A stretch of 52,920 bases of DNA. It comes from Priapulus caudatus. Lineage: Eukaryota. The first letter of the stretch is position 1. Each line of letters begins with the position of its first letter. Of the stretch, positions 21,801-48,463 are shown one piece after another. The stretch lies in the NCBI RefSeq assembly GCF_000485595.1, contig NW_014577067.1, positions 374,564 to 427,483 on the forward strand, given 5' to 3'. A program made the translations under genes and the position numbers. A model generated the notes under the pieces. The model was not told the origin of the DNA. It searched no databases and was given only the letters and a program-made list of their open reading frames with translations.

Positions 21801-24800
21801 CAAGTGAGCCTTAGACAGGAACTGTGCTGCTGTTGCATGACTGATATAGACATGACTGCGTAATGTATATGACTACTAGAAGTGTGATAAAAGATACCAG
21901 ATGTTGGACATATAAACAAATTTTGAGCCAACGTTGTAGTCATATCATTGGTGCACATATAATAAACTTACAATGTGCTCTTAGGCAGAATTATGGTCTA
22001 CTACTGTAGCTGTCAGCTCACCCCTAGCAGCTAACTTGGGTGAAAAATCTCTTATCTCCCTGATTATCATTTCACTTGCTGCAGCGACTGCAGTCGGGCA
22101 ACTGTGTGTGCCAAACAGGTACCCACATAATCAATGCAGTAGATGCATGTGCGAATAGGGGTGTCAGTGTGATGCGGGACGCCAACCCATGCAGGCCATG
22201 CGCTAGACCAGGTGTTCTTAACCTGTGGTCCATGGACCCCTTTGGGGTTCGCGGATGGGCTTCAGGGTGTCCGTGAACGTCGTGAACCAGGCGCATGCAA
22301 AATTATTGTGTTTATGTGCTTATGTGCATTTTTCTGGGGAGGGGTTTGTAGATTTCACCAGATTCTTAAAGACGTCCATGACTCAAAAAGAGGTTAAGAA
22401 CCACTGTGCTAGACGGTTTTATACTTGTACCCGAACCTGCCGACATTCGCCTTGTTTTGCCCACTTACTTTGGAGTGATGATTTCCTTGTACTGAAGCTT
22501 CATGATGCGTGCCGACGCCGCCATGCTCTCTGGAATGACTATGTTGTTGATATCAAACGCGTTCTCGGACTTTCGGAACGGTCGACGAAGCAGGTCCTTC
22601 CCGCCCTCCAGCTTCCCGTGCGAGTGGCCAGCGACGACGTCGGACAGCATCGCGGAGCCGGGCGGCGACGGCGACATCATCGCGTTGCCGTACGCGTCAT
22701 TCGGGAAACACATGGCGCGCTGCTTCTCCTGCTTCTTCATGGCGGCGAGCGCCAGCCGCGCGGCCTTCCGCTGCTTGCGACTCTCGCGCAGCTCGGACTT
22801 GCACAGCCGACTGTTGCGGCCGGAGTTCTTCAGCGCCGCCGCCGCGGTGGACGGCAACGACAGGGTCTGCAGCCTCCCACGCTTGCCGTTGTTCTCGACG
22901 AGCTTGTTGCGCAGCTCTGCCACGAGAGATGCAAGATGCGTTTTGCGTTACGATTCGGTTATGCTCAGGGATCGAGTGACCACAGCGCCGCTCAACTAGC
23001 TGCATTAAAATCATCGATGCAGTGAGATGATAGCCAGGGCTACCGCTGTCGTTCGCCACCTTCGCAAGTTGCGATAAATAAATAACAGTGGCGATTTTAC
23101 TACACTAAGTGGCGAATACAAATGGCAATGGTTCAACTGCTCACAAAATTACGCTTGTATAATAAAATCGTCAAACTTCAGTGTCGTATCGTAAAATGTT
23201 TCCGTGCACTTCTTTTCCCATACCCACCACCTGTTTATGCCTTGCCTAGCACATGCGATGAAGTGAACTGTGGCTATAGTTTTTCACTGGTGGCTCAGTC
23301 TTTGCTCAAACTTTAGAACATCCAGAGGGAGCCCTAATAGCAGTAGCTATTTTATTGAGCAGACTTTGCTTTATCTGTTATTCTCTTCTAATAAAATCAT
23401 ACTATTTAGGGGTCCTAGTCATAGCATTCTACCCTAAATCGAATTTGCTCTAAAGTCTAGGACAGTCCATACCCTAAACTAAACTCTCATACATATCAAA
23501 CGTCAAAAGAATGAAAGTACACAATAACATTTCTCTCGTATATACTGAGAACTTAAATTTCATTTAAAACTTAATTATCTCTCAAATTGTAAAGAACAGT
23601 CAAGAAAATATGGTTACGGTTGGAAAAAAAACATGAGAAATCCTTGCTTTGAACCGGGAATTATCATAAAAACCTCGCCATTAAACAATAGCTGATGGAG
23701 AATCAAAACAAACATTCACAATGGCATCTACCGACATTCTTATTTTTCAATGTATCAGCCTGACCACGATTTTTCTTAGCAAACCTCTCATAAATATGCA
23801 ATTGTCATTCATCCTAATAGAAATCTTAGGACAGCAATTACAAACTTCCATTTGCCTGCAAACAACTGCAATTCTAAGGTTTTTACACAAATAGAAGGAT
23901 TCTGACACACTAGTTCTAAATTTCAAGTGTTGTCCTAGCAGTCTCCACTTTTGCCTCAACGTTAGTATCGTTAGTCACTAACCAATAAAAAGGACAAACT
24001 TTACTACACAAATTTTGACACGCAGATGGCTGACCTATCCCCTTGCGCGTACCGCACAAGCACCCTCCATATGGTACGAACACCTACAGTGCACATCACA
24101 TAAATCGACTAAGCCGGCACACCCACCGCACAAGCTATGTACAGTAACACTCCCAGCAATGAGACTACAGTGTACTTACTAGCATTAGACAGTAAAAACG
24201 CTGCTGCATTTTTCAACTTCAACCGTTTGATCCTCTGTTCCGCGTGGTTCTTCAGCCTCCGTCTGAAAGCCCATGCATAAAAGCTGCTGATGAAACTTGA
24301 TAAAGAGAAGAATAACTTGCTGCTTCTCCGATTACAACATTTTGGTAACCAAGAGAAGAACATGGATGCACAGCCAGTGTTCTTCCCCTGAAAATGGTTT
24401 TTAAGCTTGGCAATGTCTAATATTATACAGGCTAGCTGTCTACAACGTCTCATAATGCATCGAGGATACACAGCATCAAGGTGATTTGTAAAGATGCTCA
24501 TAGCAGAAATGGAAAAAAGATGAAATTTTCTAGTGGGTAAAGGCAACTTTTAATAATGCTAAGCTTGATAACATAAACATTAGTTGCCTCAAATAGACCT
24601 TAGACCTTAAAGCCCCCTCCTTATGTACTAAAGCATAAGAAATGCCACTTGCAACATCTATTCATACGCTTGGTACAAGAATACCTGGAACTATATATCC
24701 AATTTATCTCCTATAATACTTAAAATTTCATTACATCCGTTTTTCAGATTGTAATATCATTAGAGTTTGTAAGACAAAATCATGTAACAAATCTCTTGTC

Positions 24801-26862
24801 TAATAATGATAATTAGGTTTCCTGCAGCATTCCCTATTCAACAACCTGTTCATTGGTATAAACCCACGCCTGCTCTTAGTAATGACATGCCGTATCAAAT
24901 TGTCATTTCCATGCTCTAACTGTAAGTTAATTGCCTACTAGGCAAGAAGATTTAATGATTTCACTTTCACTGACAGTTTCTTTGCTATGAGAAAATTCTT
25001 ACTTTTTGTATGTTGTTGATGATGATGACGATGATGATGATGGGCCAAGTGTCTGCTTAGGGGATGCCTTTGTTTGCCAGTCTCCTGTCTTGAGCAGGGA
25101 TTCAAAATGATGCTGGAGTGGTACTTCTAAAAAACAACACCAACTCAGTGTAATATTGTCATTCTATTTTTCTCAAAGCAAAGCAACGCTATCAATTGAC
25201 AAACTTCTCACGAACTTGCCCCTCTCGCACCGCAGTCGAATGAAACTTACCTTGGCAAAATGAAAGGACTTGATGGTGTGAGGGGTCAAGTAGGCCAATT
25301 CTTTCAGGTAGTGACATTGTGTCGGGGTCCAGAGTCTGAACGTTGTTGAAGCGGCCACCGCACATCACGCACGAGGTGATCGGAGCCGCGCAGCCACACT
25401 TCACCGTGGACAAGCGCGCGGCCTTCCGATTGATGTAATGTATGCCGGCCGCCCTCAGCAACTTCCTCTTCCTGTAGCTACGCAGGGGTCTAGTCCTGGC
25501 TGCGCAGGCCGTCACATCATCCTGGCCAGGTGCTACAGCAGGTGTACCGGGTGCCGCTGCCTCCGGTAAACCACCTGTCGTGGAGGTAACGGCAACGCTG
25601 TTTGCACTGCTCTGCGACACGCGAGGCGCCAGCGCTGTACCGCCCGCAGCCTGCTGCTGCCCTGTCCGACTGTCGTCGTCGATATACCCGTTCACAGGCT
25701 TTTGCACGAACCCATCTCTGCGTGCGGCTGCCCTCGAGCTATCACTGCTATGGAGCGGAGACAACTCGTTAGGATGGGCTTCTACGTAACGTTCCATGTT
25801 GGAGATTTTCGTCTCCAGCGGGGACAGCCGACGAGCCGTTCTATTCACGATCCTCGCACGTGCCATAACAGCATCCATCTTCTGGTCACCCAAAACCACA
25901 GGTCCCTTGTTAGCACGGATCTGCTTGTAGATATCATTCTGCTGACGTATGCGGTACTCTAGATCCGACACCTGTGCCTGCAGCCACGTCCATCTGCTGG
26001 CGATTGCCGCTCTGTCTACTGACCATTTCCACGATGCTCTCCGATATCTAATCAACATACAAGCAGGTAAAAAATTACCTCGATGCATTTACATATCATT
26101 AGTGAACGTAAAATCACACCACTTTGCACGTACAGCTCATTACGTTTCTTTTATAACCACCACGGTTATCTAAAAAATCAATGAGAATAGAAATCACAAT
26201 TTTCGTAATGATCTGCGCTCTCTCTGTCTGACGGTCTGTTCACAGCAGCCATGTAATCGCAGACCAACTTTCGTTGTATGCAAATCATTGAGTGTTTGTC
26301 ACGAGTACCATTAAACCATATCAAGTTCTTTTTGAAAAGCATTCACTAAGTACTATCATATTATGGAGTATTTGTTAAAACAGCATTAAATTTAGAAACA
26401 TGCAACCTGTGTGTACGATTTGACGTTACACAGATGCAAAGATGCACTGCTGTGTAGACATGTGCGTACATAAGTACAGACAAGTGTGTACACATCTAAA
26501 CCACTGCCACCCCCTATTACATTCTGCTACTGCTGCGCACAAACTATTCCTGCTGAGAGGAGGCAGTCTAGCTGCCACATCTCAAGCCATGTGACTCAAG
26601 CCCTTCATTAGTCAGTAGGCTGTTGTGTGTGTGTGCTGTACTCTTGTACTCATACAGTAAGCACGCTACGCTAGGGGGGGCTCTACAGGATCTCATCAAT
26701 ACAGCATGCTATTTCACAGGCAGCATGCTGTGAGTGTGAGCTCAGCAAGTACCTACATACATATTCATGTGGACAGAAATCTGTAGTCTATAGAGCAGCT
26801 AGCCTATTATGTTCAACACACATCACTGAACCCACTAGGTCGGTAGGTGTAAAGCAGTCATG

Positions 26863-26901
<39 letters not shown>

Positions 26902-28128
26902 TCATGCAGGCAAGCAGGCAGGCAGGCATTTTAGAATTATAGTACATTAGATCTGGTAATACAAGCTATGGTAGATAGATGCCTAAACTACACGTGACAC
27001 ACGATCACGCACATGTCATAAAAGACACATGACAACATTGCGACATAGGCCCAAGGCATGACCTATTGCACATCCACCTGCCCCGAGGCTAGTAACATAC
27101 TCAGCACAGTGCCATCGTCATTCAACTACAGGATCATCTAACTCACAAGCCCACGTAAACAATCTTTTCCTTTCTTCAAAAAACTAATCATAATGCCCAT
27201 AATTATTGCCTACCTGAGAACAAAAAGATATCATATCAATGCTATGCTCCATCACTAAAATTACTTTCAGACACACGGACTTCTTTGAAACAAAAAATTG
27301 TTGACTCAAAGAAATAACACCATGATGAGAATTTAAAGTTAAACAGTGTCCGATAACAGCCTACTTCGCAACTGCTCAGATATTTACCTAATGCAATCTA
27401 TAATCAGATAAACCTGTTTAATAAATTTGCCAACTCTGACTACATGTACATCCTGTTCCTTCTCATAGACCCATTGTCACCAATATCATACAGTATAATA
27501 GTTGTTAGTTCGTTTGAAGACACTAGAATAATATCACTTCTGCGATAGAATAAGATTATTGCAATTTTTACCAAAAAGAGTAAATTCCGATTTATCTTAG
27601 ATGATAGATCTATGTACTCTTCAACAAAAACTCAATTTTTTTTATATATACATTATTTTAGTTGGCAGCTTGAAGAATGAGTGGCCCAAGTATTACTATT
27701 TTTAAAATTAGTAAAATGAAACTCACATAAATGTAAATATTTGAAAGCACCCCCTAAAAATGCTTGTCTTATAAGCCGTGACATTCATTCTATGCTGTAC
27801 ATAGATTTAACTATGTGATAAGGCAAGGCTCGACACTAACTTTTTTTTTCAGTGGCCCGATCGGGCCACCAAAATCATTGATTTTCAATTTTTGGTGGCC
27901 CGAAAATGTAATCTGGTGGCCCGAAAAAAAACAAAGAAAAACATTATAAATCTTTATTTCAATCTCGTATTGTATATTATTTGAAAATTGGGCCGTCTGA
28001 TGCACTTGCACAAGTCTTTAAACAAACCCCACACACTGACATTGATGATTGAGGCATACATTTGAATTGTCCATTCCACGGCATCAAATTTTCACCAGAA
28101 CCGCTGATTCTGGTTCGCTTGATACAAT

Positions 28129-28181
<53 letters not shown>

Positions 28182-31140
28182 AACAAACACGTGCGCACGT
28201 ATAATATGTTTGTGGAATGCTATATATGATTGTTGAAAAGAGAAAATCGATGTTTGGTAATCGATGGTTGTAAATCTCAAATCTTATATATCGCCTAGCT
28301 GGCAAAGTATAGTTGTAATACATATATATATAGTGGTAAATATATGGTACACATATTATATGGTACACAAATATATGGTGAATAATGGTTTTTATTGCAG
28401 ATTGCTTTTAATAAAATATTCAAGATTTCATATCTTCATGAATTTGTCTAAGTGAATCACGTATCATTATTTGCATTAGATCCAATGTCTGAGGACGAGT
28501 GCATGTTTGTGGTTATGCTCGTACGCAAATCGAGACATAACGGTTGTGACAAATATTATTATTATGAGAATAAATTGTGAATACAAAATTGAAGGTGAAT
28601 AATAAATAAAAGTAAGAATAATATATAAGACGTAATATGCATGCAACTCAAATACATGTAATATAGTATCAACATATATCGTGTATCATATATCATACAG
28701 AACAATGTATATTATAACACACACGCGTGCGCGCACGCACGCACTTATACACACACACGCACGCCCGCACGCACGCACTTATACACACACACACGCACGC
28801 CCGCACTTATACACACACACGCACGCCCGCACGCACGCATATACCGTAATTAATAATCCATGATCAAGCATCATAACTAATCACAACGTGAGTAAATGAT
28901 ATATACGCGAATTATTTATGCTTCTTATATCGTATATGGTATGTTATCAGCATGTTATGTATATACTCATGATAATATTATATGATTTGTGCAACCCACG
29001 TTCTTGATTTGATCATTTGATTCACGTTAGATTATCATTCTTCGCTGCAGTCCCTTGGATTATAAAGCATTTTCTATTCTCTTTGTGAGGTTATAATATG
29101 ATTAATTATGTTGTTTATGCTGCAGACGATTTTTGGGTTCTGCTCACTGATCTCAATAATAATATTTTATTAATAAAATTTTATTATAGAGATCAGTGGT
29201 TCTGCCACTGGTTCTGCTGCTTTACTAATTTTTATTCGCTAGGTAGCAGCACCTACCTGAACCTGAGCCTAGTCAGAGCCAAGGAGCTACATATAACATT
29301 ATATAAATTATATATAACGTTATATGTATAGCTCCTTGGTCAGAGCTACCTCTAGTCAGAGCATATAAATCAGGCAGGCATGACTCATCAGCATATAAGT
29401 CAGCATATCATCAGCATATAAGTCAGTCATATATTATTTAATTCGATTTTTACCATAGTTTTTTTTATATGTGAACAGACTCACAAGTATAATTCGTACA
29501 CACTGTGAGAAGCACTAAAGCTGTGTGTAGTCTTAGAAAAATGCCATAAGGTTATAAATTAGCCCATGCTGGTGGCCGTGTTCCATTACCAATACCATGT
29601 TATATTACCAATATAATCCTAACAAGCAAGTATTATCTTTAAAGTTCAATTTAATATATTCATAGACATTGTAATTATGGACAATATCAGTATCATTACA
29701 ATATATCCCAAATACATACAATATATTAAATGATTACAATATTTATATATTATAATATAATTATAAGTAGTAACACCACATTCAATCTGTGCCATATATA
29801 GTTTTTCAATAATTATACTGTAACTAGTTAATAAACACCTGATATATTTACACCAGGTCACATAAAAATAATTACAAATCTGAAATGTTAAGCCTTATAA
29901 CCCCTCTTAAGATTTCATTTGATCTAAAATGGATATGAATGTACTTATACAGAAATCAGCATTTTGAGGTGCCATATGAAATAACACCGCATTGTACATT
30001 GTGCATGTACATACACCCAGACACGGTTATTTCGTTCAGTTGTCAGACACGATTGGTCTGGCGATGAGCTCCTTCATGATCTCATTGCTTCCGGCGTAGA
30101 TTGGTTGGACTCGCGCGTCGACATATGCCCTGGCTATAGGAAATTCCCACATGTATCCCCAGCCACCATGAAGCTGAAGACATTGGTTTGCAATCTTGTT
30201 CTGCAGGTCAGATGCCCTGAGAAGACAAACACAGGAACGTTATACATTTTACACACTCACACACGCATGAAGTATATACTTGCCCCAGAGTGCCTCTTGC
30301 AATACAACATCACAGACCCTAAGGTATATCAGCTTGAAGTGCTATTACTTTGAATGCTGTTCTGGCTTTCTATTTCTGATTTTTATTTCTCTTTTTTTTT
30401 CAGTTACTAATGTCCTTTGTCTTTAATCAGTTAATAATCTCCTTGATTGTTGACAATAGCACCAATGTATGCAAATTTATAAACGTCAGTAACTTCAACA
30501 TTGTTGATCTTCAGCCCATCTTATGACTCAGTGCAGACTTTCAACACTTCTGGTTAACCTTGAGAGGCCATATTAGCCTATATTCATGAGTTAGTTTAAC
30601 AAAAGAATAATTTCGCAAGTTATAATTGCAATGATGATAGTGAATACCATCTTGACAAGAGTGTGCATATAGGAAAAATCTTATAGCTATTTGGAAATAG
30701 ACACAGAGCACAAACAAGAGATCAGCAGCAATAGGGATGCAGTGGTTTAACACCAAAAAGTAGCTTACAGATATTTAGCCATGGAGACTGAGTAGTTATC
30801 TAGAGTCTCATGCTGATGCTGCTGCAAGCACTGGTCGTAAAATGCTCTCATCATACATATTTCACTCTTCATCTCGGCCAGCTTGTGTTGAACTGTCTGC
30901 AATTAAACAAAATAATGGCATAATGACATAGCCAATATAGCTTCAATGAATGATTTACAATATATGTATATATATATAATTTTAAATATCAGTATTGAAC
31001 TCACATGTTGGTATGTAAAAGGTGTTTGAATAAGAATATATACTAGAAAAACACGGATACATCTCTTGACGTGTTACGTTTGACTGACAAGGATGACTGG
31101 GGAGGTTTTAGAACGAAATGTCGTACCTTTCGATGTAAAT

Positions 31141-31185
<45 letters not shown>

Positions 31186-32306
31186 ATATATATACTTATC
31201 GTGTAAGAGGATTATTAAACGTCAACTACTTACACCGAGTGATGCTGCGTCTCGCACGTGTCAAACTCCTCCTCGTCGCAGCTCTCGCCACCCGAACTGC
31301 TATCGGTCGCCTCCGAGTCGAGCACCCTCTCCAGGTGACCGAGGTTGGCGGCGAGGCTGCTCGACACGCAGCTGATCTCGTCGCACAGGTCGTCGCCGAG
31401 GGCGACGGTGACCTGGTCCTCGCTGTGAGCGCCGCGACTGCTGTACAGCCGCTGACGCTGCGAGCCGTGGGCGCTCTCCAGCTTCCGCACGAGGTTGACG
31501 AGGGCCGCCGTCGACAGGTTCTTCACGTCCTCGCTCTGCAGCAGCTCGGCGTGAAAGTCGCTGCTGTTCGGCGCGCTGCAAGTCCTCGTCGTTGATCGCA
31601 CGCACGACTGCAGGTTCTTGCGCTGGTGCTGAACGAACGCCACCAGCTGTTCGCGCACATGCGTGTTCGTCTGCATCGTCTGCAGCCGCCGCAGACGCTG
31701 CAGCAGCCGCTCCGCACGTCGTTCCAGGTAAACCTGCCGCTTGCCGGCGTCCGCGAGCCTATCACACACGAGAGACTTCAGCAAGGTCAGTTCGGATTGA
31801 TCGTCAGTATCCATGGCACTCTCGTCCAGCTGTGTGGGAGAGACAGCTTCTGGCTGCTGAACGGTGGTCCTATTCTCGGCCAAAATGCTGCTGGCGATTG
31901 GGGATGACGAAGAACTGTTGCGTTGTCCCGTCATGTCTAGCTTTGGATTGCCGTTTGTGTTAGAACCACGTAGGTTACACGTCGCTTTCTGAATTCTATT
32001 TCCTCCCGTTTTCTGGTCGACGTCCATTGTGTTCACAATGCCAAAATTGTTGTTGGTCGCTGCAAGCTTCCGCAGTAGAGCCGGGATGTTGGCTTCTTTC
32101 AACTGACTGTAACCGTTGTGCGGCCGCACCAGAATCTGTGCCTTTTGAGCCTGCACGGGAGAGACAGCCCGCTCGCTTGCTGTGGGACTCTCACAGTCCC
32201 GCTCCCTATCAGTTTCCGGCGAGCTCTCAGATGGCGGCGGTGATGGAGGAAGTCTGAAACCTGAATGCACGGACTGCCTAATTGCATCCGACAATGCAGG
32301 CGCCAT
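12811..32306 (-). CDS. KANSL1: KAT8 regulatory NSL complex subunit 1 (KANSL1/NSL1); exons 32306-31234, 26047-25251, 25126-25003, 24262-24180, 22916-22469, 21453-21330, 20608-20350, (18531-18503 tentative), 14201-13940, 13007-12811; ~1130 aa
   Basis: MAPALSDA start; LLQRLRRLQ coiled coil; [59 protein letters not shown]-like CAARTRP; PEHE domain [51 protein letters not shown]. Splice phases checked; only the link between 20350 and 14201 needs a small extra exon or an alternative donor. Confidence 0.93.
15705..17048. mobile_element. Helentron/HINE-like non-autonomous repeat with nested hAT-like element (~16176-16517) and internal duplications
   Basis: Start GAAAGTGTCAGTGACACTGTAGCTCACC and end CCATGGCAATAGCTCATCTTGACGATGTCAAGGCGAGCTAAAAA (hairpin plus A-run, (GGAC)n) recur at ~35536-35890; 63-bp tandem duplication ~16310-16461; ~150-bp duplication 16518/16820. 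Confidence 0.65.
17849..20169. mobile_element. HINE-like repeat with nested insertions
   Basis: AACAAGAG..GCTCATCTGA start; end GCATCTGACTTCGTCAGATGAGCTAAAAA; 3' part (20025-20169) recurs at 35050-35202. Whether both ends belong to one copy is inference. Confidence 0.5.
18696..19163. mobile_element. hAT-type MITE
   Basis: TAGTGTTG...CACCACTA; 8-bp TSD GGAATTTC; ATCGAT-rich subtermini. Confidence 0.8.
20909..21307. mobile_element. hAT-type MITE
   Basis: TAGTGTTGTCA...TGACATCACTA; 8-bp TSD TAGGTAGG. Confidence 0.85.
22209..22406. mobile_element. hAT-Charlie-like MITE
   Basis: CAGGTGTTCTTAACC / GGTTAAGAACCACTG; TSD CGCTAGAC/TGCTAGAC. Confidence 0.8.
26863..28840. repeat. Microsatellite cluster: (CAGG)n ~26863-26928, (CA)n 28131-28181, (CACG/CA)n 28718-28840
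   Basis: Directly visible simple repeats. Confidence 0.9.
30036..30896 (-). CDS. ACADL: ACADL exons 8 (30896-30769) and 9 (30216-30036, stop codon), lying inside the first coding intron of KANSL1
   Basis: [33 protein letters not shown] | [59 protein letters not shown]; canonical splice sites; not in the ORF track. Confidence 0.95.
31146..31194. repeat. (TA)n microsatellite; a second one at 43158-43196
   Basis: Directly visible; both lie in inferred breakpoint intervals. Confidence 0.9.
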
Positions 32307-33833
32307 CGCGAAAGGACGGGACAGCCTCAATGGCCAGCGTGAACACATACAAGTGGTAGAATAGCAGATGCAAGATTCTCCACCTGATGATCCATAACGC
32401 CCACCTGGATGTCTCCCACCTGGTGAACGAAAATGCACATCAACATATAATTACAAATATGCAAATGCTTCAACAATATCACAACTCTGACTTTCGGAAT
32501 TATTTCAAGTTAAATTAGGCTTTAATTCTGCTGCAGACTAAATTACATTCTTCAATATGAACAATACATAAACACCAGATTTTAAAAATTGACCATGTGC
32601 GATGATGAACGATGCCACTGTTTGAGCTACTTCTTGCATCAGTGACACGAGAACATTTGCAGGGCCTAATTCAGGCCATTTTTCATACTGAATACGGGCC
32701 TCCCAAATTACGTCCCCTAGCAAAATGCCCAAATTACAAAATTCATAAAACGCCCAAATTAGCAGAGCTCTGATGCAGATCTCCATGTTTCTATCGTCAT
32801 GTTGTAGGCACTGTTTTATAATAAAATGCTCATATAAGATCTATAATCTATTATCTGAATAAAATGTGTCAACCAAACGTCCAATTTAACGTGATAGATA
32901 AGTATATATACAATTTCCCTGTACGGTTCCCCGATTAGGCTAGATACATAGATTAAGCCCCGATTTGTAAATGGTTATTCCATGTACCACAGAGAGAGCG
33001 ATAGTGCAATTCATCCTCTCTTATATTAATGATTACAAACCCCACATTCCATGTTTATAAAATGCAAAAAAAGTTCATAAAGCAAGTTATGTGAGCGAGA
33101 GACAGATCACAGAATGGCATCATCTCAATGTGCACATACGGTAATCAATAATAAAACACTATCTATAAACATGTTAAATGTCAAAAATATTACACCTGTC
33201 ATAGCTTTCCAAATACAACATTTATTCACAATGATGACAATAGTTGTAGGCTGAAGCATAATTTAGACAATTCACAGAAATTATATGGAGGCCAAAGGTG
33301 ATAACAAAGTGGCAGTCAGCCTGTAAAAGTATCTCTGGAACTAGCCACAAGTTCCCTTCTCGCTTAACACTACATTGGCCTACGACGTGCAACAGTCGGA
33401 GAGCCTGGTCGGTTTACTCTGGAACTATAATTAATGTGAGTACCCTTGAAAGTGGGTGACGAATCAGATGACGTAACATCATGAGTTATTAATACGCTGT
33501 GGCTATATGGCAGGCAGCCGGGCAGTCTTCGATTTCCTAAATGCCCTTAAACCCTAACCCTTGTTTACTTGAGATAATGCTGAAAATTAAAAAATGCCGT
33601 GCATTTAGGAAATCGAAGACCGTGGCCGGCAGCCGTCAGATATATGCCGGCTGCCGGGCATATAGACACTCTGTTATTAATATTATTGCGTCGTATACAT
33701 ACACTACGACACTAGGCCTACAATACATGCATTGCTACGACTCATGATGACTCGAACACGAGTGGCGTTTATCAAGGAACGAAGGCGTAACAAAATATCT
33801 CTGGCATGCATGCTGTTGTCCAAACTAACGTAC

Positions 33834-34450
33834 CAACGACCCTCCACGCCTGCTCCCCCAGGAACAGGATGGGTCTGTGGGGTGAAGTGGAAATTGCTCA
33901 GTTGCTAGACCGTTCTTCTTCCTTGACAAGAACTAGGTTGATGACAACGGCGTGACAGCTTTCAGTCTTCCTCTGTGCATTTTAATAAACAAGCAAATTG
34001 ACAACAATTTCAAAGTGCACAGTGAGGTAACTCATGCATTTAGGCATTTTTATTGACGTTTGTAAAGATACATAAGCCAAACGTAAATTTTTGGGCGTTT
34101 TGCAAGCTGGAGCGTACAGAACAGAAGACCGCGAGCGGGTTACAAATACGCGTAGGACAAACCACGTGATCAGGCCACGTCCCCGATGAACAAACAGGCG
34201 AATCAACATTTTTGGCAAGAACACATAGTAGCGATTTCCACCTTCTTACACGTAGTACAGCACATTATACTCACTCCACTGTAACGTCTCTGTATTGTTT
34301 TCACTAGTGCCGTCCGAATAAGCCAGAAATTTCCGCGAACTAGTATCGAAAATGTGCAATATCAAACGCCTCAATAATGGCGACGAAATGAAAGTCCGTA
34401 GACCTTCCAGACAACGAAAACGGGCGAGATAGGATGTGTGACGTCACATT
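33834..34450 (-). promoter_or_regulatory. Putative KANSL1 promoter and non-coding 5' exons (~34390-34275 and 33972-33834)
   Basis: CpG-rich; TGACGTCA at 34439-34446; YY1-like AATGGCG at 34376-34382; minus-strand donors GTGAG (34274) and GTACGT (33833), acceptor CACAG (33973). Confidence 0.55.
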
Positions 34451-34889
34451 AGTAAGACCCCTCTACGGCGTATTTGGTGATTGGTTACGAAGAAACTGCT
34501 CACTGTTACAATAATTGACTACCTCCCCAATAAACTTACAGTTATATGCAAATTAATGTAAAAGTATAGCTTACCAATTTTAACATATAAAAAATATAAA
34601 TTTTGAACACATTTTTATATTTAAATAGTACAACTTATTTTAGCGAAATTATATTTTGCCTGGATAAAGTTGCAAGTTTCATCGCCATATGGGGGTGGCA
34701 GCAGAACAAGTATCCGCCCATGTACAAAGGTACATGCTACAAGCGCCCTAGAAAATTTCGCGGGGTTTGCGTTCGGATTTCGGCCGACTTGGATTTTGAT
34801 ATATGAATGCAAGCAACTTCTGCATAGTCTCCAGTAAACATTATATGAGTCTGATACATACACATGCACGCACGCACACACGCACGCAC

Positions 34890-34920
<31 letters not shown>

Positions 34921-36179
34921 TGATCGCAAATATTCGAACCGAAAATAACCGAACCGAAATGTGAAAACCGAAAACCGAACCGAACCGTGAAGTTGTGATT
35001 CGTTGCACCCCTACCTTTGACCCCCAGCTTCGACATCCCAACTCGTTTTGACGATCCCCCCGACGTCCCGAATATCATGACCGTACGTCGAGCGGTTAAG
35101 ATTTGTGCCCAACTGTTGACGCACGCACGCACAGACGGCCGGACGGACGCACGCTCATGCGATTCTACAAGCTGCATCTCACTATGTCAGATGAGCTAAA
35201 AATGAAATGACCGCCGATTTGAAGGCAATCCGAAACACCCGACTCTTATAAGATGATGCAGTCCTCCTTTCTTGCCATGGACGTGATAAACGTGGCAATC
35301 CATGGTTTGAGTTGTCCAAGTGGCGCCAGTCAGTTTCATAGCAGCAAGAGATTTAATTGATATTGTGACTCACTCGTGACTAAAATAGGGTTCGGAAGAG
35401 TTATTAGGAATTTGGCACTATTGCTTTATCAGTTTTTGCTAATGGGTGAATCTATACTAAGTAGTCCTATAGTAATATTGATATTTATACTTATACAAAA
35501 CATTATAAAAATAAGTATAAATATTAAAATAAATGAAAGTGTCAATAACACTGTAGCTCACCACAAAAAAGGACACAAATGAGTGAGTGAGAAGAAGTCA
35601 GTTTTAATTGAGCAACCATCGACGTACATTATAGAAACGAAATTGCCATCTGTATATCGTATAAATAATTTATAAACCAAAATGAATCACAATTTGTGAC
35701 GGTAGATGGCGCTATACCCGCTTTGATGTTTCTTAGCATAAATCATTATATCATAATAATAATAGTATAAATCATAATATGTTCATAGCAGGAATTTTGC
35801 ATTATCGTTGACCCTAGCCAAATGTTGACGGACGGACGGACGACGACCCATGGCAATAGCTCAGCTTGACGATGTCAAGGTGAGCTAAAAAGAGGATATT
35901 CAAAAATCAACCCTTTGCATATAATTATAACGCATGTGAACCAATTACATCACAGGCCACATAACCAGAATCATCCTGCTAATTGCTACCAGATGTTGCC
36001 TGCTCTATCACTACTTCCTACACATACCAAAGCCACCCAGACCGATGACAAACGTCTTCATGAGTAGAAACTGGTTCTATGATACCAGACAGTTTATATA
36101 TAGAGATATATATATAGTACCAGAAGTTAATAAAGACAAAGGAGTTTGACACGTATTTGGTACTGATTTCACTACATAC

Positions 36180-36632
36180 TCGGTCTGTAGCCCTTGGCTG
36201 GAAAGTGGTTTTGCGCAACTTCTCAGATCGTGCGCTTTGAGTGGCGCCACCGTCGTTGTAATCAAACTGTAGTAGTTAGTTTTAAAACATTTTTTTTTAA
36301 TATTTCTAATGGTGATTGAACCATGAAACTTTTTATGTAGCGCAATTATAACCTAAATTAGCTGAAAATAACCCTAGAACCTAGAGGCTACTGTTCCTTT
36401 AAATTAATAAATAAGAAACACCCTCGGTCTGTAGACCTTGGCTGAAAAGTGGTTTTGCGCAACTTATCAGATCGTGCGCTTTGAGTGGCGCCACCGTCGT
36501 GTAATCAAACTGTAGTCGTTAGTTTTAAAACATTTTTTAATAATATTTCTAATGGTGATTGAACCATGAAACTTTTTATGTAGCGTAATTTTAACCTAAA
36601 TAAACTGAAAATAACCCTAGAACCTAGAGTAA
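36180..36632 (+). mobile_element. Two orphan RIGHT ends of a TTAA-flanked (Kolobok-like) element
   Basis: ~205-bp direct duplication (36180-36390 / 36423-36630); first ends CCTAGAGGCTACTGTTCCT|TTAA at 36398; second is interrupted by another element. Confidence 0.75.
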
Positions 36633-36635
36633 AAC

Positions 36636-37308
36636 TGTTAGGGTTAGAGACGAATTTTTGGTCGAAATTTCACTACCCACTTTATTTGATAGATCGCACC
36701 CATGGGCAGCTATGTATACGTAGAAATTATGTATGTACCCTCCCAAACAGATCCAAATCCCCTCATTAGACAATTATTAACACAGGAATCATGGAAAATT
36801 TAGAAAAGTGCTAATATCTCCATCGTTAGAAATGCTGACTTGTCAAACGCTATTTCTCGAAACTCACAACTCCGATTCAATTTTTTTGTTACAGTTTAAT
36901 GCTAACATATGAAAGGAAAAAAGTGTCCCTGTAATTTTTTTTAAATATTTTATTTTAAAAGTTATGGCTCTTTGTTTACGAAATTGTTGCGTTTTGAAAT
37001 TCACTACAAATTTTCGTACATCTTTTCAACTTCTTTCCTAAATTAAAGCATTTAAACAAAATTCCAGGGACACTTATGGTTAAACGTTTAGGTCCCAACT
37101 CTGCTGTTTCAGAGAAATAACAAAAAAGCATGTTTTTGTATAAATTCACAATTTTTGCAGTCACTTAATTAGCAATAAATTTAAAAAAAAATTTCATCGA
37201 GAGCGTAGAGAGACATCTCTCGTATGTATACATGGATATGAGTTTGATTGAATTAGATGAGTTATGTTGCAATGCCCTTTACAGTGTTACACGTCCATAA
37301 CCCTAACA
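36636..37308. mobile_element. Inverted-repeat element inserted in the Kolobok-like right end
   Basis: TGTTAGGGTTA ... TAACCCTAACA termini. Confidence 0.6.
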
Positions 37309-37525
37309 GTATCCTTAAAGAAATGTTGTAAATAAATCGTGACAAACTATTTTTTAATAACGAGTCCTACACGACGTGAATGCTGTGATTTGCTCTTCTA
37401 TGTAAGTCTATATTACCACATCAACTTCCCAAGCCACATGACTGGCCAACGTGAGCCAAATGACTGGCCAATAAACACTAACCTCGATGGGGAGTTAGTT
37501 CAAACCAAGATTATAATTTTCATAT

Positions 37526-37828
37526 TATCAGAATTAGATAATAGGAAAGGAGTGTGACTTCAATAAACAAGGGAAATTCGTCATTTACTAGCCTTAGAAT
37601 ACCTACTTAGAATGGAGAATCGTGTCGTACGTTTTAGTCTGTATCTCCGGATTGCGGGCGTATACAAGGAAACGATTTCGCACGATGCTAGGCGAATGTA
37701 CCGTGTACGATTTGAGCTCAAGTTGGTTGAGTTACGCGCAGTAAATCGTAGGTATTCGAAGGCTAGTAAATGACGAATTTCCCTTGTTTATTGAAGTCAC
37801 ACTCCTTCTCTATTATCTACTTCTGATA
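37526..37828. mobile_element. MITE with ~80-bp terminal inverted repeats
   Basis: GGAGTGTGACTTCAATAAACAAGGGAAATTCGTCATTTACTAGCCTT and its exact reverse complement at ~37758-37805. Confidence 0.8.
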
Positions 37829-37968
37829 CTATATATATTCATATACCAAGTTATACGAATGGCTGGTGCACACATACTGTAACATGTGTCACATGACTGG
37901 CCACAGTGTTTGAGTAGAAAGCTTGCCTTTCCAAGCCTCATGAATCATTGCCAAGACGGAAACCGCAC

Positions 37969-40062
37969 CTGTGCTTTCAAGCCAAGTTTCTTCAGTTTCT
38001 TGCCCTTCTTGAACCCTTCCATACCCTCCTCCACCAGAAACAAGCTGATACCACGGGCCGCACTCTTGGCCGTTGGGTCTGTTACTGCTACGACAATAAC
38101 AACGTCTGCCATGTGACCATTGGTAATGAAGACTTTGCTTCCATTAAGAATCCAGCCATCTCCATCTTTTTTGGCATTGGTTTTAATGCCTTGAAGATCA
38201 CTGTTATGGAAAAGTAGAGCTGGAAGATATTCTTGAGAAATATATGATCTATACAAATATATCTGTTCACGTCTATTTCATACCTAGTACATTGAAAATT
38301 CCACATAACTCCTTCAAGAGCCTATTATGATATAGGTTTAATTATATCACTACTATAAATTAACTTTTTTCTATATATACTGGTAAAAGTTGAAGCAATG
38401 GTAATATTGAAGCTGACAACTATTTTGTGAACTGACAGTTTGAAACGGGGGATTTTTGGCCCAGCATGATAGCTGCAAAGGTGACATGACAGCTTGGCTT
38501 GGACATTGCACATGCTGGGCACATTACACAGCAAATAACTCGGAAACTAACGGTAGAGAATGTTTACTCTCACCTGCCTGCTCCAGGTTCTGTCATGGCA
38601 ATAGCTCCTATTTTCTTTCCAGCTGTCATGGCAGGCAGGAACTTCTCTTTCTGCTCGGTAGTTCCGTAGTGACATATATAGGGCATCACAATGTCTGAGT
38701 GCAAGGCCCATCCTGGGCCTGATGCGCCAGAATACCCCCTGGAATTAATTATCAATACAATTACAGACAGGTCGGTCAATCCATAGTGCTTCAAGGACAT
38801 ACGATTTGTACCAGATGCACCTTTGAAACCATTTTTCTCATTATTTTATCCTAACAAGTTGGTACACAATTGCTATAGTTATTTGATAAGTACACAAGCA
38901 GCTTTGTTTAAACATATAGTTTATAGATGATTTTAAAATTAACAGCATTCCTGCAGAATGGTTGCATTGGTCTGTCACTAGCTGTGCACTGCAGTCATGA
39001 CTAACATCCATGGGCAGATTAATCTTCTCCCAAACTACTGCCCTATTTGCAACCATACTTACCATCCATGCTCAGTGGGGGTAGATAGAATGTCAGTGAG
39101 ACCACCTCCTTGCTTACACATTTAAGCCAGTGTTATTGATGTAGGTAAGTCAGTGTCATTCTAATAACTACAGGTGACATCTATTAAATCTACTAATAAG
39201 ATGAGCGAGAACCCATTAAATTCTCATCTAATATGAAGGACGTATTTCTTACCAAATTCAACTAGGAAGGTTAATTACTGCATTATAAGCAAAATCACAA
39301 ACTCCCACACAAGCACAATCACACACATGTGCGCACATAACCACATTTAAAACAGTAAAACACATACACACAAATAGCTATTAACTCAGATAAGTAATTA
39401 TACTTACTGCTCATCCCACACGATAGAGCTTGTGAGGATATCACTGCCAATGCCTCCCTCCTCTGCAGGTGTACTCACTCCCAACAGTCCAGCTTCACCC
39501 GCCTTCTCCCACACCTCACGGCTTACTTGTCCATCGATCTCCCACCTGCAACATTTGCCATTTTGCATTTGTCACATAATATTACTATCAAGAGGTAAGG
39601 CCTACCTAAGGAGGTATACCTAAGGTGTTATTAGCTCTTGTTACTAAGAATAAAACTTACTACTTAATTTCAAGATTCGCCTGTTTCTGTCACTCACCTG
39701 AAACATGCAGAGTTATACGACCAGTATAGCATCTTGGGATGCGTGAAAACAAAGCTTCATGTCAATGATGCGGCATGACCAACAATAGTGGTAGCGAGCG
39801 AATCACATTTGATTCTAAACAGCGCTGCACAAAATTATGTCCAGAAAACAGCACTAACCAAACGAGCGACTTCTCAGTACCCGGGTCCAACAACAAGATA
39901 CGTAAAACTCACTGGTCGTGATAGGGCATGACCTCCTCTTGGAAGAAACGGCGCACATTCTTTCGAAAAAGATCGTGCTCATCGGAGAAAATACGTCGAG
40001 TGCCGATGTCGGTGAGCTTTTCCGACTGGCCCGGCTCGGGCCGATCCATGTTGCAGCATCCT
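37969..40062 (-). CDS. ACADL: ACADL exons 2-5 (40062-39913, 39545-39408, 38738-38574, 38200-37969)
   Basis: KLTDIGTRRIFSDEHDLFRKNVRRFFQEEV; WEIDGQVSREVWEKAG; GPGWALHSDIVMPYI..GAIAMTEPGAGSDLQGIKT..LNGSKVFITNG..GISLFLVE..KLGLKAQ; phases 2,2,2,0 consistent. Confidence 0.96.
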
Positions 40063-40425
40063 CTAGACAAATTAATAGTGTCTATTAGATGCAATTAACC
40101 TCTCCAGGTAAACAGGAATAAATGACATACAGCCCATTACAGCGTCATATATTGCACAAATATATACAACAATTAACCAGTCTCTCGTTTGCTACAATAC
40201 ACGTAGACAATCACAACACTGTCAGCAAAGATGAGAAATGGAGTTGATATTAATTATTATTAGGTTTCTAAAAATCGGAAGATTTGGCATTCTGCCACTA
40301 TGCAGTCAGTCTGACGATCTAGGTGTTGAAAGTGCACATGTATGTGTGTAGAACTATTTAACACAAATTTGGAAGCTGGGCAGAAAAGAACAAAAGCAAC
40401 CATATCTTTTAAGGCACATGGTTAA

Positions 40426-40682
40426 AGGGAGAGTTTACTCTAGGTTCTAGGGTTATTTTGAGCTAATTTAGGTTATAATTACGCAACATAAAAAGTTTCA
40501 TGGTTCAATCACCATTAGAAATATTTTAAAAAAATGTTTTAAAACTAACGACTACAGTTTGATTACAACGACGGTGGCACCAATTAAATTAGGTATCTGG
40601 TAACAAATACGTGTGGGTATAGACGATTTGTTATACAGTAAGTACAGTTGTATGCAGTAAAATCCTAGAGGATACCGTCCCT
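40426..40682 (-). mobile_element. Complete short copy of the TTAA-flanked Kolobok-like family
   Basis: TTAA|AGGGAGAGTTTACTCTAGG...CCTAGAGGATACCGTCCCT|TTAA; one half matches 36250-36398 and the other 44189-44285 (both reverse complement). Confidence 0.8.
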
Positions 40683-40808
40683 TTAAAAAAAATCAACCAG
40701 AAATGTACCCTCTAACCCCGAGTATGGGTCAGATCAAGAGTAGATAATAACACATTAACTATGTGTTATTATCTACTCTTGGTCAGATAAAAAGAGATAG
40801 AAATATAC

Positions 40809-40900
40809 CAGTGAAAAAAAATACACGGGGGCTCGGGGCGATTTTTATGCACTCGAGCTTGAAAAGTAGCCCCCGAAAAATAAATAATATTTTTTTCCCT
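40809..40900. mobile_element. Minimal hAT-type element
   Basis: CAGTGAAAAAAAATA / TATTTTTTTCCCTG; 8-bp TSD AAATATAC; longer relative inverted at ~45670-45821. Confidence 0.8.
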
Positions 40901-43154: not shown

Positions 43155-43204
<50 letters not shown>

Positions 43205-43289
43205 TATATATAATATATATTATTTATAATTTTTAAATCCTGCTTTTGAATGATATCAAGCATCCTGTTGCTAGTGTGCACATTCATAC

Positions 43290-43705
43290 CTGCAGACTTG
43301 AGATGGTACGCTTAAATGCCTTTCTTTGCTTAACATAGTCCCTAGTCATCTCAAACATGGCCTCAGAACTGGACACACCTACTGCTGCCACGATCAGTCT
43401 CTCCTGTGGAAGCTCCTACATGAGACATAATTCATTAATAAACCCTTGTTTCATTATAAATGTCACGAATAGAATATGATATTCGGTTTGTACCTAGGAT
43501 GAAAAACCTTTTAATCAGGTATCGGCCTAACCTAATTCTAGTTTAGCATATGCAGAGCCATCACTAACAATTGGTTTTAACACTGAGAATATAGTCGAAT
43601 GACCTTCACTCTCACCTTCATCAGATACATAAAGCCATAGTTTTCCTCTCCCAGCAGTGCACTCGCAGGCAACTTCACATCTTCGAAGAACAGCTCAGCG
43701 GTGTC
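43290..43705 (-). CDS. ACADL: ACADL exons 6 (43705-43616) and 7 (43415-43290), located upstream of exon 2 in transcription direction
   Basis: DTAELFFEDVKLPASALLGEENYGFMYLMK | ELPQERLIVAAVGVSSSEAMFEMTRDYVKQRKAFKRTISSLQ; continues exon 5 (..LKAQ, phase 0) and leads into exon 8 (TVQHKL, phase 0). ELPQERL carries the LCAD-type catalytic Glu. Confidence 0.95.
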
Positions 43706-43826
43706 CTGAAACACACACACGTCAATAAGTAGCCATTGCTAGATAAGCTAGTGTCAAAAACCATCCCAAAAGCATTCAGATTGGTCTACAAGAGCTATAC
43801 TACTAGTATATACCAACAGCCATTAA

Positions 43827-48424: not shown

Positions 48425-48463
48425 CAGAGATTCCTAAAGTTCTTATCCATCTTCTACTTGCAG

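What the first reader, a model, noticed from the sequence alone, without database searches (positions are those of the whole stretch)
30036..34450. ACADL terminal exons sit inside a KANSL1 intron on the same strand, with the KANSL1 promoter between ACADL exons
The KANSL1 exon ending at 31234 (GT|) joins in phase to 26047 (|A TAT CGG), but ACADL e8 (acceptor 30897) and e9 with its stop codon lie in between. As written, KANSL1 pre-mRNA must skip two good acceptors and the ACADL 3' end only ~340 nt after its donor, and ACADL must skip KANSL1 exons. KANSL1 exon (phase 2) spliced to ACADL e9 (phase 2) would even be an in-frame chimera. Same-strand interleaving is very unusual; swapping the two blocks resolves it.
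Basis: seen in the sequence. Interest (0 to 1): 0.88.

Follow-up and report, generated by a model that had tools for sequence, protein, structure and literature searches.

The report
Mis-ordered assembly mimics interleaved ACADL and KANSL1
In this draft priapulid-worm scaffold the exons of the fat-oxidation gene ACADL lie in a different order from that in its own mRNA, so its apparent interleaving with the neighbouring KANSL1 gene is likely an assembly error, not an unusual gene arrangement.

Summary
All features are on the minus strand. The KANSL1 coding exon 32419-31234 splices in frame to 26047, and an RNA contig carries exactly this junction. ACADL exon 8 (30896-30769) and exon 9 (30216-29426, stop 30038-30036) lie between those two KANSL1 exons.

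The locus is nevertheless out of order. ACADL exons 6-7 (43705-43290) lie upstream of exons 2-5 (40062-37969). One ACADL RNA contig has exon 5, then exactly the summed length of exons 6, 7 and 8, then exon 9. All unique blocks are single-copy in depth, so no intact second copy supplies that mRNA.

Every block boundary falls in a high-copy repeat or a (TA)n array, where independent DNA contigs stop. The only two long (TA)n arrays in the window sit 61 nt after the exon 7 donor and 245 nt before the exon 8 acceptor. Joining the two arrays would give a roughly 370-nt intron 7, like the gene's other introns.

The public ACADL model is a 231-aa stump because of this. Most likely the genes are ordinary same-strand neighbours, either tandem or with ACADL wholly nested in a KANSL1 intron. 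True interleaving is not excluded (about 7%). Interest is low.

The parts
34275..34436 (-). KANSL1 5'UTR exon. The upstream end is approximate (end of an RNA contig, not a mapped transcription start).
   Evidence: X6 record 12 has 164 nt upstream of 32417. A GTGAGT donor lies at 34274 and the length fits. The placement is inferred, because this piece was not among the rows shown.
31234..32419 (-). KANSL1 first coding exon (ATG at 32348 in the NCBI model; a second in-frame ATG at 32306). It ends with 2 nt of a codon.
   Evidence: tblastn of P0001 aa 1-372 at 100% identity. X6 records 9 and 12. Frame check.
31142..31194 (.). (TA)27 array, 40 nt after the KANSL1 exon donor and 245 nt before the ACADL exon 8 acceptor. 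Likely a mis-join point.
   Evidence: TRF. Perfect-run scan. X1 contigs stop at 30953 and 31205.
30769..30896 (-). ACADL exon 8 (128 nt).
   Evidence: Pfam PF00441 positions 53-93. tblastn. X6 binned depth 6.24 against 6.01 expected for a 28.2-depth contig over 129 nt.
29426..30216 (-). ACADL exon 9 with stop codon 30038-30036 and a roughly 610-nt 3'UTR. ATTAAA at 29442.
   Evidence: X6 record 11 piece 30215-29426. Pfam PF00441 positions 95-148. ATTAAA.
25251..26047 (-). KANSL1 second coding exon, joined in RNA to 31234.
   Evidence: X6 record 9. P0001 aa 373-637 at 100% identity.
37969..40062 (-). ACADL exons 2-5: 40062-39913, 39545-39408, 38737-38574 and 38200-37969. They lie inside one single-copy X1 contig (37922-40475).
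   Evidence: tblastn. Splice sites. X6 record 11 pieces for exons 4 and 5. Pfam ACAD N-terminal and middle domains.
43290..43705 (-). ACADL exons 6 (43705-43616) and 7 (43415-43290), placed upstream of exons 2-5 in the window. This is the misplaced block.
   Evidence: tblastn aa 260-332. GT-AG sites. Exon 7 matches PF00441 positions 11-50. The 577-nt sum check against X6 record 11.
43158..43228 (.). (TA)36 array, 61 nt after the ACADL exon 7 donor. Likely partner of the array at 31142-31194.
   Evidence: TRF. Sequence. Apart from 31147-31194, the only perfect (TA)>=8 run in the window.
34680..37921 (.). High-copy repeat zone between ACADL exon 5 and the KANSL1 promoter. X1 word depth is 3.5e4 to 2.2e5, against about 25 for unique blocks.
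   Evidence: Depth table and contig pieces.

Best explanation
The window is a locally mis-ordered stretch of a draft Priapulus caudatus scaffold. ACADL exons 6-7 lie upstream of exons 2-5, although an RNA contig carries them in the normal order. The apparent interleaving of ACADL with KANSL1 is therefore likely an artefact of the same mis-ordering.

Shown:
- Both genes are real, single-copy, spliced and expressed on the minus strand.
- KANSL1 splices 31234 to 26047.
- ACADL mRNA runs exon 5, then 344 nt, then exon 9. The 344 nt equal the rest of exon 6 plus exon 7 plus exon 8.
- The genomic order in the window cannot give that mRNA by ordinary cis-splicing.
- Every boundary between unique blocks is a high-copy repeat or a (TA)n array, where independent short-read contigs end.

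Inferred:
- The two (TA)n arrays were paired with the wrong flanks.
- In the real genome, exon 7 (43290) likely runs through one (TA)n array into 31141-30897 and exon 8, giving a roughly 370-nt intron 7.
- The KANSL1 promoter and first-exon block would then not sit inside ACADL.
- ACADL would be a compact collinear gene, either directly upstream of KANSL1 (tandem, my slight preference) or wholly inside the KANSL1 intron after its first coding exon (nested). I could not tell which.
For: 1. Exon order. tblastn of Liolophura ACADL (P0110) puts aa 39-260 at 40043-37969, aa 260-332 at 43708-43290 and aa 331-434 at 30902-30039. Each part is found once and all are on the minus strand. All have GT-AG borders.

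2. RNA. X6 record 11 (1923 nt) has 38737-38574 at record positions 392-555, 38200-37968 at 556-788 and 30215-29426 at 1133-1923. Record positions 556-1132 total 577 nt, which equals 232+90+126+128+1, that is exons 5 to 8 plus the first G of exon 9. Pfam profile positions run on from exon 7 (11-50) to exon 8 (53-93) to exon 9 (95-148).

3. Single copy. The X1 contigs over all unique blocks have depth 19.6-28.5 (ACADL blocks 24.6 and 28; KANSL1 blocks 25.3, 19.6 and 25.9). The RNA pieces differ from the window by 0-1 letters.

4. Boundaries. The 8 long X1 pieces listed are 25047-26690, 26933-27669, 29756-30953, 31205-32743, 33637-34851, 37922-40475, 40874-41769 and 41989-43149. Repeats with depths of 1e3 to 2e5 lie between them. 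X1 depth in bin 31050-31654 (14.5) equals what the contig starting at 31205 gives on its own (14.58), so nothing is laid on 31050-31204.

5. (TA)n arrays. The only perfect (TA)>=8 runs in the 52.9 kb are at 31147-31194 and 43159-43196. One is 61 nt after the exon 7 donor and the other 245 nt before the exon 8 acceptor. The implied intron of about 370 nt matches the gene's other introns of 200, 367, 373, 552 and 670 nt.

6. Public annotation. The NCBI ACADL-like model P0231, on the same 1,178,442-bp scaffold as the KANSL1 model, has only 231 aa. It runs through the exon 5 donor into the intron. No protein carrying exon 9 at 100% identity was found; the best hit was 88%.

7. A hint for the tandem order. 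An X1 contig joins the single-copy flank at 29279, 147 nt past the ACADL 3' end, to a copy of the element that lies at about 35179, some 740 nt upstream of the KANSL1 start (table 5c).
Against: - No read or contig was seen that shows the corrected order.
- The simplest single repair, moving only the exon 6-7 block to between exon 5 and the KANSL1 promoter, would leave the interleaving intact. One X1 contig joint (35892 to 43029, depth 42) would fit that repair. Its left side, however, is only 27 nt of an element present thousands of times.
- Short-read contigs built with 31-letter words cannot cross a 53-nt (TA)n array, so their failure to bridge 30953-31205 is weak evidence.
- X1 may be the sample the window was assembled from.
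- ACADL exon 1 (the presequence) was not found in the window.
- Only 15 of 230 joints, 24 of 1950 loose ends and 16 of 13527 pieces were shown. Raw-read junction counts for X10 and X9 could therefore not be read.
Confidence: 0.82

Rival explanations
1. The interleaving is real. Only the small block with ACADL exons 6-7 is misplaced. In the genome the KANSL1 promoter, 5'UTR exon and first coding exon sit inside ACADL intron 7, and ACADL exons 8-9 with their poly(A) site sit inside the KANSL1 intron, all on one strand. Each pre-mRNA would then skip the other gene's exons.
For: This is the repair needing the fewest moves. The KANSL1 junction 31234 to 26047 and ACADL exons 8-9 are all transcribed and cleanly spliced in separate RNA contigs. 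The X1 joint 35892 to 43029 would fit the exon 6-7 block lying at 35892. X1 contigs do show that both the KANSL1 exon flank (31205) and the flank at 43149 run into TA-rich sequence.
Against: No record listed bridges 30953-31205. The 35892 side of the joint is 27 nt of a very high-copy element, and the 43029-43149 side has about twice the single-copy depth (57.5), so the joint may come from another locus. This model leaves as coincidence that the window's only two long (TA)n arrays flank the exon 7 donor and the exon 8 acceptor. It makes intron 7 about 5 kb in a gene whose other introns are 200-670 nt. From general knowledge (recalled), same-strand interleaved protein-coding genes are very rare.
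Confidence: 0.07
2. The window is correct, and this ACADL locus is a scrambled, dead copy. The mRNA would come from an intact ACADL gene elsewhere in the genome.
For: The window's exon order cannot yield the mRNA. Exon 1 was not found in the window.
Against: X1 depth over the ACADL blocks (24.6 and 28) equals that of the KANSL1 blocks (19.6-25.9). The exons are therefore present once per genome, not twice. The RNA contig pieces match the window with 0-1 differences. All eight exons found keep open frames and GT-AG sites.
Confidence: 0.02
3. The window is correct, and a linear ACADL mRNA is made from a truly scrambled locus by non-linear splicing (trans-splicing between two pre-mRNAs).
For: Only that the RNA order and the window order disagree.
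Against: Nothing points to such a mechanism here. A full-text search for 'spliced leader', 'trans-splicing' and 'Priapulus' found 0 papers. All breakpoints lie in repeats where the assembly lacks support from independent contigs. The RNA contig has an even depth of 28.2, like an ordinary mRNA.
Confidence: 0.01

Closest known systems
Local mis-ordering of small unique contigs between repeats in short-read draft scaffolds (a known assembly artefact; general knowledge, recalled)
   Same: Unique blocks of 0.8-2.6 kb are separated by high-copy repeats and microsatellites. Independent contigs end at each boundary. The exon order conflicts with the mRNA. The gene model is truncated in the public annotation.
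   Different: The window has no N gaps, so the wrong joins were closed with sequence and do not look like scaffold gaps. The corrected order was not observed here.
Host/nested gene pairs (Genome Res 2024, PMC11694760; passages read)
   Same: If ACADL lies wholly in the KANSL1 intron after the first coding exon, it would be a same-orientation nested gene in a 5' intron of its host. The passages state that nested genes lie preferentially in the most 5' introns, and that same and opposite orientations are broadly similar in number in mouse and human.
   Different: In the window as assembled only the last two ACADL exons are inside the KANSL1 intron, so the definition is not met. Whether it is met in the real genome is open.
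Same-strand overlapping or read-through (conjoined) gene pairs (recalled, no call)
   Same: Two protein-coding genes lie on one strand within a few hundred bases. An in-frame KANSL1 exon to ACADL exon 9 join is arithmetically possible.
   Different: No chimeric RNA contig was among the pieces shown. The X6 depth between 31233 and 30897 is fully accounted for without any contig there.

Membership tests
ACADL (long-chain acyl-CoA dehydrogenase) | The three ACAD domains (N-terminal, middle, C-terminal) | tested here: met
   PF02771 and PF02770 on exons 2-5 and on P0231. PF00441 on exons 7, 8 and 9 at profile positions 11-50, 53-93 and 95-148. The domains are complete only if the exons are read in mRNA order, not window order.
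ACADL (long-chain acyl-CoA dehydrogenase) | Closest relatives are named long-chain specific ACAD rather than another ACAD paralogue | tested here: met
   Nearly all named proteins among the 120 listed for exon 9, and the large majority of those listed for exon 5, are called long-chain specific acyl-CoA dehydrogenase. Identities are 71-88% (exon 9) and 71-86% (exon 5). No tree was built.
ACADL (long-chain acyl-CoA dehydrogenase) | Mitochondrial presequence exon and catalytic residues | tested here: inconclusive
   Exon 1 was not found by tblastn or by ORF and donor scans. Catalytic residues were not examined.
KANSL1 (KAT8 regulatory NSL complex subunit 1) | Collinear similarity to KANSL1 orthologues, including across the exon junction in question | tested here: met
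   109 proteins with E <= 0.001, mostly named KANSL1 or NSL1. P0001 against Lingula KANSL1 gives E = 1e-71 and runs through aa 372/373, plus a conserved C-terminal block.
KANSL1 (KAT8 regulatory NSL complex subunit 1) | PEHE domain (Pfam PF15275) | tested here: not met
   hmmscan of P0001 gives 0 families even at E <= 10, although most listed relatives carry PF15275. The domain may be diverged or the model imperfect. This does not bear on the finding.
Interleaved same-strand gene pair (real architecture) | One DNA molecule carrying exons of gene A, then of gene B, then of gene A, then of gene B | tested here: inconclusive
   This holds in the window. However, no contig listed bridges 30953-31205, and X1 depth shows nothing laid on 31050-31204. 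Short-read contigs cannot cross the (TA)n array, so this neither shows nor excludes the architecture.
Assembly mis-order | Genomic exon order incompatible with the gene's own transcript, in a single-copy locus | tested here: met
   Exons 6-7 lie upstream of exons 2-5. RNA contig record 11 has the canonical order by exact length sum. Depth is single-copy.
Assembly mis-order | An independent assembly or long reads showing a different order | not testable with these tools
   No eukaryote genome is held. Both read-laying runs were used. No long-read run was among the runs laid.
Host/nested gene pair | The nested gene lies wholly within an intron of the host | tested here: not met
   In the window only ACADL exons 8-9 lie in the KANSL1 intron. 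For the real genome this is open.

The most novel reading that the evidence does not exclude
After correcting only the misplaced exon 6-7 block, KANSL1's promoter and first two exons really lie inside ACADL intron 7. ACADL's last two exons and its poly(A) site really lie inside the next KANSL1 intron, on the same strand. Both genes are expressed and cleanly spliced. This would be a true interleaved pair in which each pre-mRNA must ignore the other's strong splice sites, and KANSL1 transcription must run through an active poly(A) site.
Probability: 0.07. Interest if true: 0.65.

Novelty: not a real feature. Interest (0 to 1): 0.13.

Why it matters
The value is mainly for annotation and for the scan itself.

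- **Public annotation.** The public Priapulus caudatus ACADL model is a 231-aa stump without the C-terminal domain. The cause is that its exons are mis-ordered in the scaffold. Priapulus is often used as a slowly evolving ecdysozoan reference, so gene-content or intron studies could misread this as a truncated or lost ACADL.

- **Caution for the scan.** An odd gene architecture in a gapless-looking draft scaffold can be produced by wrong joins at microsatellites and high-copy repeats. A whole-gene exon-order check against a homologue or a transcript exposes it quickly.

- **If the minority reading were true.** A real interleaved same-strand pair would be a natural test case for splice-site and poly(A)-site choice.

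Tried and rejected
- **Whole genome.** None is held for this window.

- **First read laying.** I asked for 25000-44999 so as to include exons 6-7. The exon 6-7 block was therefore never laid, and the exon 5-6 and exon 7-8 junctions rest on length arithmetic.

- **Second read laying.** The tables were cut to the best-supported rows, which were dominated by repeats. No X10 (raw RNA) joint rows were shown, so I could not count reads for 31234 to 26047, 31234 to 30896 or 31234 to 30216. I also could not see X9 (Hi-C) reads at the breakpoints.

- **RNA holders.** No RNA holder was listed by the index. X6 is labelled 'RNA?' by guess. Its contigs lack introns, which is why I treat it as RNA.

- **ACADL exon 1.** tblastn with small words and two ORF-plus-donor scans gave no credible candidate.

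- **A shared repeat to explain a second wrong join.** The 243-nt tandem unit at 36179-36629 and the copies at 43823-44344 both match the element at 40422-40688, but different parts of it. They share only 24 nt with each other. A simple two-repeat graph swap is therefore not shown.

- **Contig joints at repeat ends.** The joints 35202 to 41748, 35891 to 40733, 35892 to 43029 and 42011 to 43033 were rejected as proof of adjacency. The shorter side is 22-27 nt of a very high-copy element.

- **Earlier notes of this scan.** None exist for this genome.

- **Papers.** One search for 'Priapulus caudatus', 'genome assembly' and 'chromosome' found 21 papers, of which I saw 12 as a listing only. None of the 12 listed is titled as a description of the Priapulus assembly. 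Spliced-leader trans-splicing in Priapulus: 0 papers.
Full report
**What the window is.** The 356-aa translation of 32306-31237 (minus strand) hits at 100% identity the NCBI model 'KAT8 regulatory NSL complex subunit 1-like [Priapulus caudatus]'. This is P0001, 1049 aa, on a 1,178,442-bp scaffold. A further 108 proteins, mostly KANSL1/NSL1 of molluscs, brachiopods, nemerteans and arthropods, also match. The window has no N and no whole genome is held for it. All features discussed here are on the minus strand.

- tblastn of P0001 places aa 1-372 at 32348-31233 and aa 373-637 at 26046-25252. Further exons follow down to 12814, all collinear.
- The exon ends ...TCG GT|GTAAGT with its last base at 31234. 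The next exon starts at 26047 behind ...ttgattag. Reading across gives ...[12 protein letters not shown], as in P0001.
- P0001 aligns with Lingula KANSL1 straight through this junction (E = 1e-71). The upstream exon is therefore part of KANSL1 and not a separate gene.
- Between the two KANSL1 exons lie ACADL exon 8 (30896-30769) and exon 9 (from 30216, stop 30038-30036). Both have good acceptors and donors. They match Pfam PF00441 and are 59% and 86-88% identical to Liolophura ACADL.

**RNA evidence.** One run search listed 14 runs. I laid four of them on 25000-43149: raw RNA reads X10, contigs X6 (labelled 'RNA?' by guess), raw Hi-C reads X9 and DNA contigs X1.
- X6 contigs lack introns, so I treat X6 as RNA.
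- Record 9 (1372 nt) carries 31496-31234 joined directly to 26047-25251.
- Record 12 carries 32417-31473 preceded by 164 nt. That length fits a 5'UTR exon ending at the GTGAGT donor at 34274.
- Record 11 (1923 nt, depth 28.2) is the ACADL mRNA. It has 38737-38574 at record positions 392-555, 38200-37968 at 556-788 and 30215-29426 at 1133-1923. It ends 16 nt after an ATTAAA at 29442.
- X10 raw reads (51 nt, unstranded) cover ACADL exon 9 at about 18-fold and the KANSL1 exons at about 1-2-fold, by bin.
- No X10 junction rows were among the 15 of 230 joints shown, so I have no raw-read junction counts.

**The decisive extra fact.** ACADL is out of order in the window.
- tblastn with Liolophura ACADL (P0110, 434 aa) gives aa 39-260 at 40043-37969, aa 260-332 at 43708-43290 and aa 331-434 at 30902-30039. 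Each part occurs once.
- By splice sites the exons are: exon 2 at 40062-39913, exon 3 at 39545-39408, exon 4 at 38737-38574, exon 5 at 38200-37969, exon 6 at 43705-43616, exon 7 at 43415-43290, exon 8 at 30896-30769, and exon 9 from 30216.
- On the minus strand, exons 6-7 therefore come before exons 2-5. A cis-spliced linear mRNA cannot join exon 5 to an exon upstream of it.
- Yet in RNA record 11, positions 556-1132 comprise 577 nt. That equals exactly 232+90+126+128+1, which is exons 5, 6, 7 and 8 plus the first G of exon 9.
- Binned X6 depth agrees. It is 6.24 observed against 6.01 expected over exon 8, and 17.5 against 17.53 over exon 9.
- Pfam PF00441 profile positions run on from exon 7 (11-50) to exon 8 (53-93) to exon 9 (95-148).
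Its presence in the RNA contig is inferred from this exact length match.

**This is not a second copy.** The long X1 contigs over all unique blocks have depths of 19.6-28.5. The ACADL blocks are at 24.6 and 28, and the KANSL1 blocks at 25.3, 19.6 and 25.9. The RNA pieces differ from the window by 0-1 letters. The mRNA therefore comes from these very exons, present once per genome. The remaining explanations are a wrong assembly order or an exotic splicing mechanism. The former is far more likely.

**Where the order can be wrong.**
- The eight long X1 pieces listed are 25047-26690, 26933-27669, 29756-30953, 31205-32743, 33637-34851, 37922-40475, 40874-41769 and 41989-43149.
- The stretches between them have word depths of 1e3 to 2e5, against about 25 for unique sequence. 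They are high-copy repeats, or they are microsatellites.
- Each gene piece thus sits on its own small island. This applies to ACADL exons 8-9, the KANSL1 coding exon, the KANSL1 promoter and ACADL exons 2-5.
- For the junction the finding depends on, X1 depth in bin 31050-31654 is 14.5. The contig starting at 31205 alone predicts 14.58. Nothing from X1 is therefore laid on 31050-31204, and very little on 30954-31049 (21.6 observed against 20.7 expected from the contig ending at 30953).
Contigs built from 31-letter words cannot cross a 53-nt (TA)n array, and the tool warns that a hole proves nothing.

**The (TA)n clue.**
- The only perfect (TA)>=8 runs in the whole 52.9 kb are 31147-31194 and 43159-43196. 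By TRF these are (TA)27 at 31142-31194 and (TA)36 at 43158-43228.
- The first lies 245 nt upstream of the exon 8 acceptor and 40 nt after the KANSL1 donor. The second lies 61 nt after the exon 7 donor.
- If the flanks are re-paired, exon 7 runs through one (TA)n array into 31141-30897 and exon 8. Intron 7 is then about 370 nt. The gene's other introns are 367, 670, 373, 200 and 552 nt.
- The complementary pairing puts the KANSL1 exon next to 43157 and downwards.
- This re-pairing is inferred, not observed.

**What the true order may be.**
- *Tandem.* ACADL complete, then the KANSL1 promoter. An X1 contig joins the single-copy flank at 29279, 147 nt past the ACADL 3' end, through 'GA' to a copy of the element at about 35179. 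In the window that element lies about 740 nt upstream of the KANSL1 start. The element is very high-copy, so this is only a hint. This order needs the most breakpoints.
- *Nested.* If 43157-37922 is contiguous as assembled, re-pairing puts the whole of ACADL inside the KANSL1 intron after the first coding exon, in the same orientation. Host/nested pairs of that kind are common in mammals, with nested genes mostly in 5' introns and the two orientations about equally frequent (PMC11694760, passages read).
The X1 joint 35892 to 43029 would fit. Its left side, however, is 27 nt of the high-copy element end, and the right side has twice the single-copy depth. This order also leaves the (TA)n coincidence unexplained and makes intron 7 about 5 kb.
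- My estimates are roughly 0.45 tandem, 0.37 nested, 0.07 interleaved, and the remainder other.

**Public annotation.** A search with exon 5 found the NCBI model 'long-chain specific acyl-CoA dehydrogenase, mitochondrial-like [Priapulus caudatus]' (P0231) on the same scaffold. It has only 231 aa, with the ACAD N-terminal and middle domains only. It starts at an internal Met (40049), covers exons 2-5, and reads through the exon 5 donor to a stop at 37948. A search with exon 9 found no 100% match among 1255 candidates; the best was 88%. The public scaffold therefore has the same order as the window, and the gene model is broken by it.

**Verdict.** The sequence-level observation is correct. The biological reading, a real same-strand interleaving, is most likely an artefact of a locally mis-ordered draft assembly. 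The two genes are ordinary, expressed, same-strand neighbours. Interest is low. What remains is a small chance of a truly interleaved pair, and a useful correction to a truncated public gene model.

Noticed in passing
window 37948-40049 (minus strand): The public NCBI ACADL-like model of Priapulus caudatus (P0231) has only 231 aa. It starts at an internal Met and reads through the exon 5 donor into the intron. It lacks the whole C-terminal ACAD domain, which is encoded at 43705-43290 and 30896-30036.
   Followed up: yes
(proteins of other species): ACADL and KANSL1 proteins are listed with the same 'longest contig' length in 11 spiralians: Lineus longissimus, Tubulanus polymorphus, Liolophura sinensis, Babylonia areolata, Littorina saxatilis, Pomacea canaliculata, Mercenaria mercenaria, Sinanodonta woodiana, Pinctada imbricata, Pecten maximus and Argopecten irradians. 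That most likely means the same chromosome. In Sinanodonta the locus tags are 14 apart. The linkage seen in Priapulus may be ancient. Equal contig length is only a proxy and adjacency was not checked.
   Followed up: partly
window 27420-29234, 32260-34074, 34680-38309, 40125-42544: Very high-copy repeats. X1 word depth reaches 2.2e5 against about 25 for unique sequence, and X9 raw depth reaches about 2700. They are also covered by RNA reads (X10 up to about 175-fold per bin). One element end, ...GAGCTAAAAA, recurs at 35197-35203 and 35891-35892 and gives many contig joints.
   Followed up: partly
window 36179-36629, 40422-40688, 43823-44344: A 243-nt unit in 1.9 tandem copies. Inverted relatives lie at 40422-40688 and further partial copies upstream of ACADL exon 6 (92-95% identity).
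   Followed up: partly
window 41840-41865: (GGTTAG)4.3, a rotation of the TTAGGG telomere-type unit, lies inside a high-copy element.
   Followed up: no
window 29279 and 35179: An X1 contig (depth 35.5) reads the element sequence ending at about 35179, then GA, then 29279 onwards. The window has unrelated sequence left of 29279. This is either a wrong join in the window 147 nt past the ACADL 3' end, or an allele with an element insertion.
   Followed up: partly
P0001 (window 32348-12814, minus strand): The Priapulus KANSL1 model gives no Pfam hit at all, even at E <= 10, although most listed relatives carry the PEHE domain PF15275. The window ORF 22465-22947 contains ...[30 protein letters not shown], which from memory looks PEHE-like.
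   Followed up: partly
window 40063-43157 and the whole minus strand: ACADL exon 1 (start codon and mitochondrial presequence) was not found, although the RNA contig has about 103 nt upstream of exon 2. It may lie outside the window or in a repeat-flanked piece, which is another possible sign of mis-ordering.
   Followed up: partly
window 48272-50290 (+) and 3147-3696 (-): ORFs that look like a glycosyltransferase of the ALG5 type (...VIVPAYNEQER..., ...LLFADADGAS...) lie on the plus strand. ORFs that look like a DHHC palmitoyltransferase (...DHHCPW) lie on the minus strand. Both names are from recalled motifs and were not tested.
   Followed up: no
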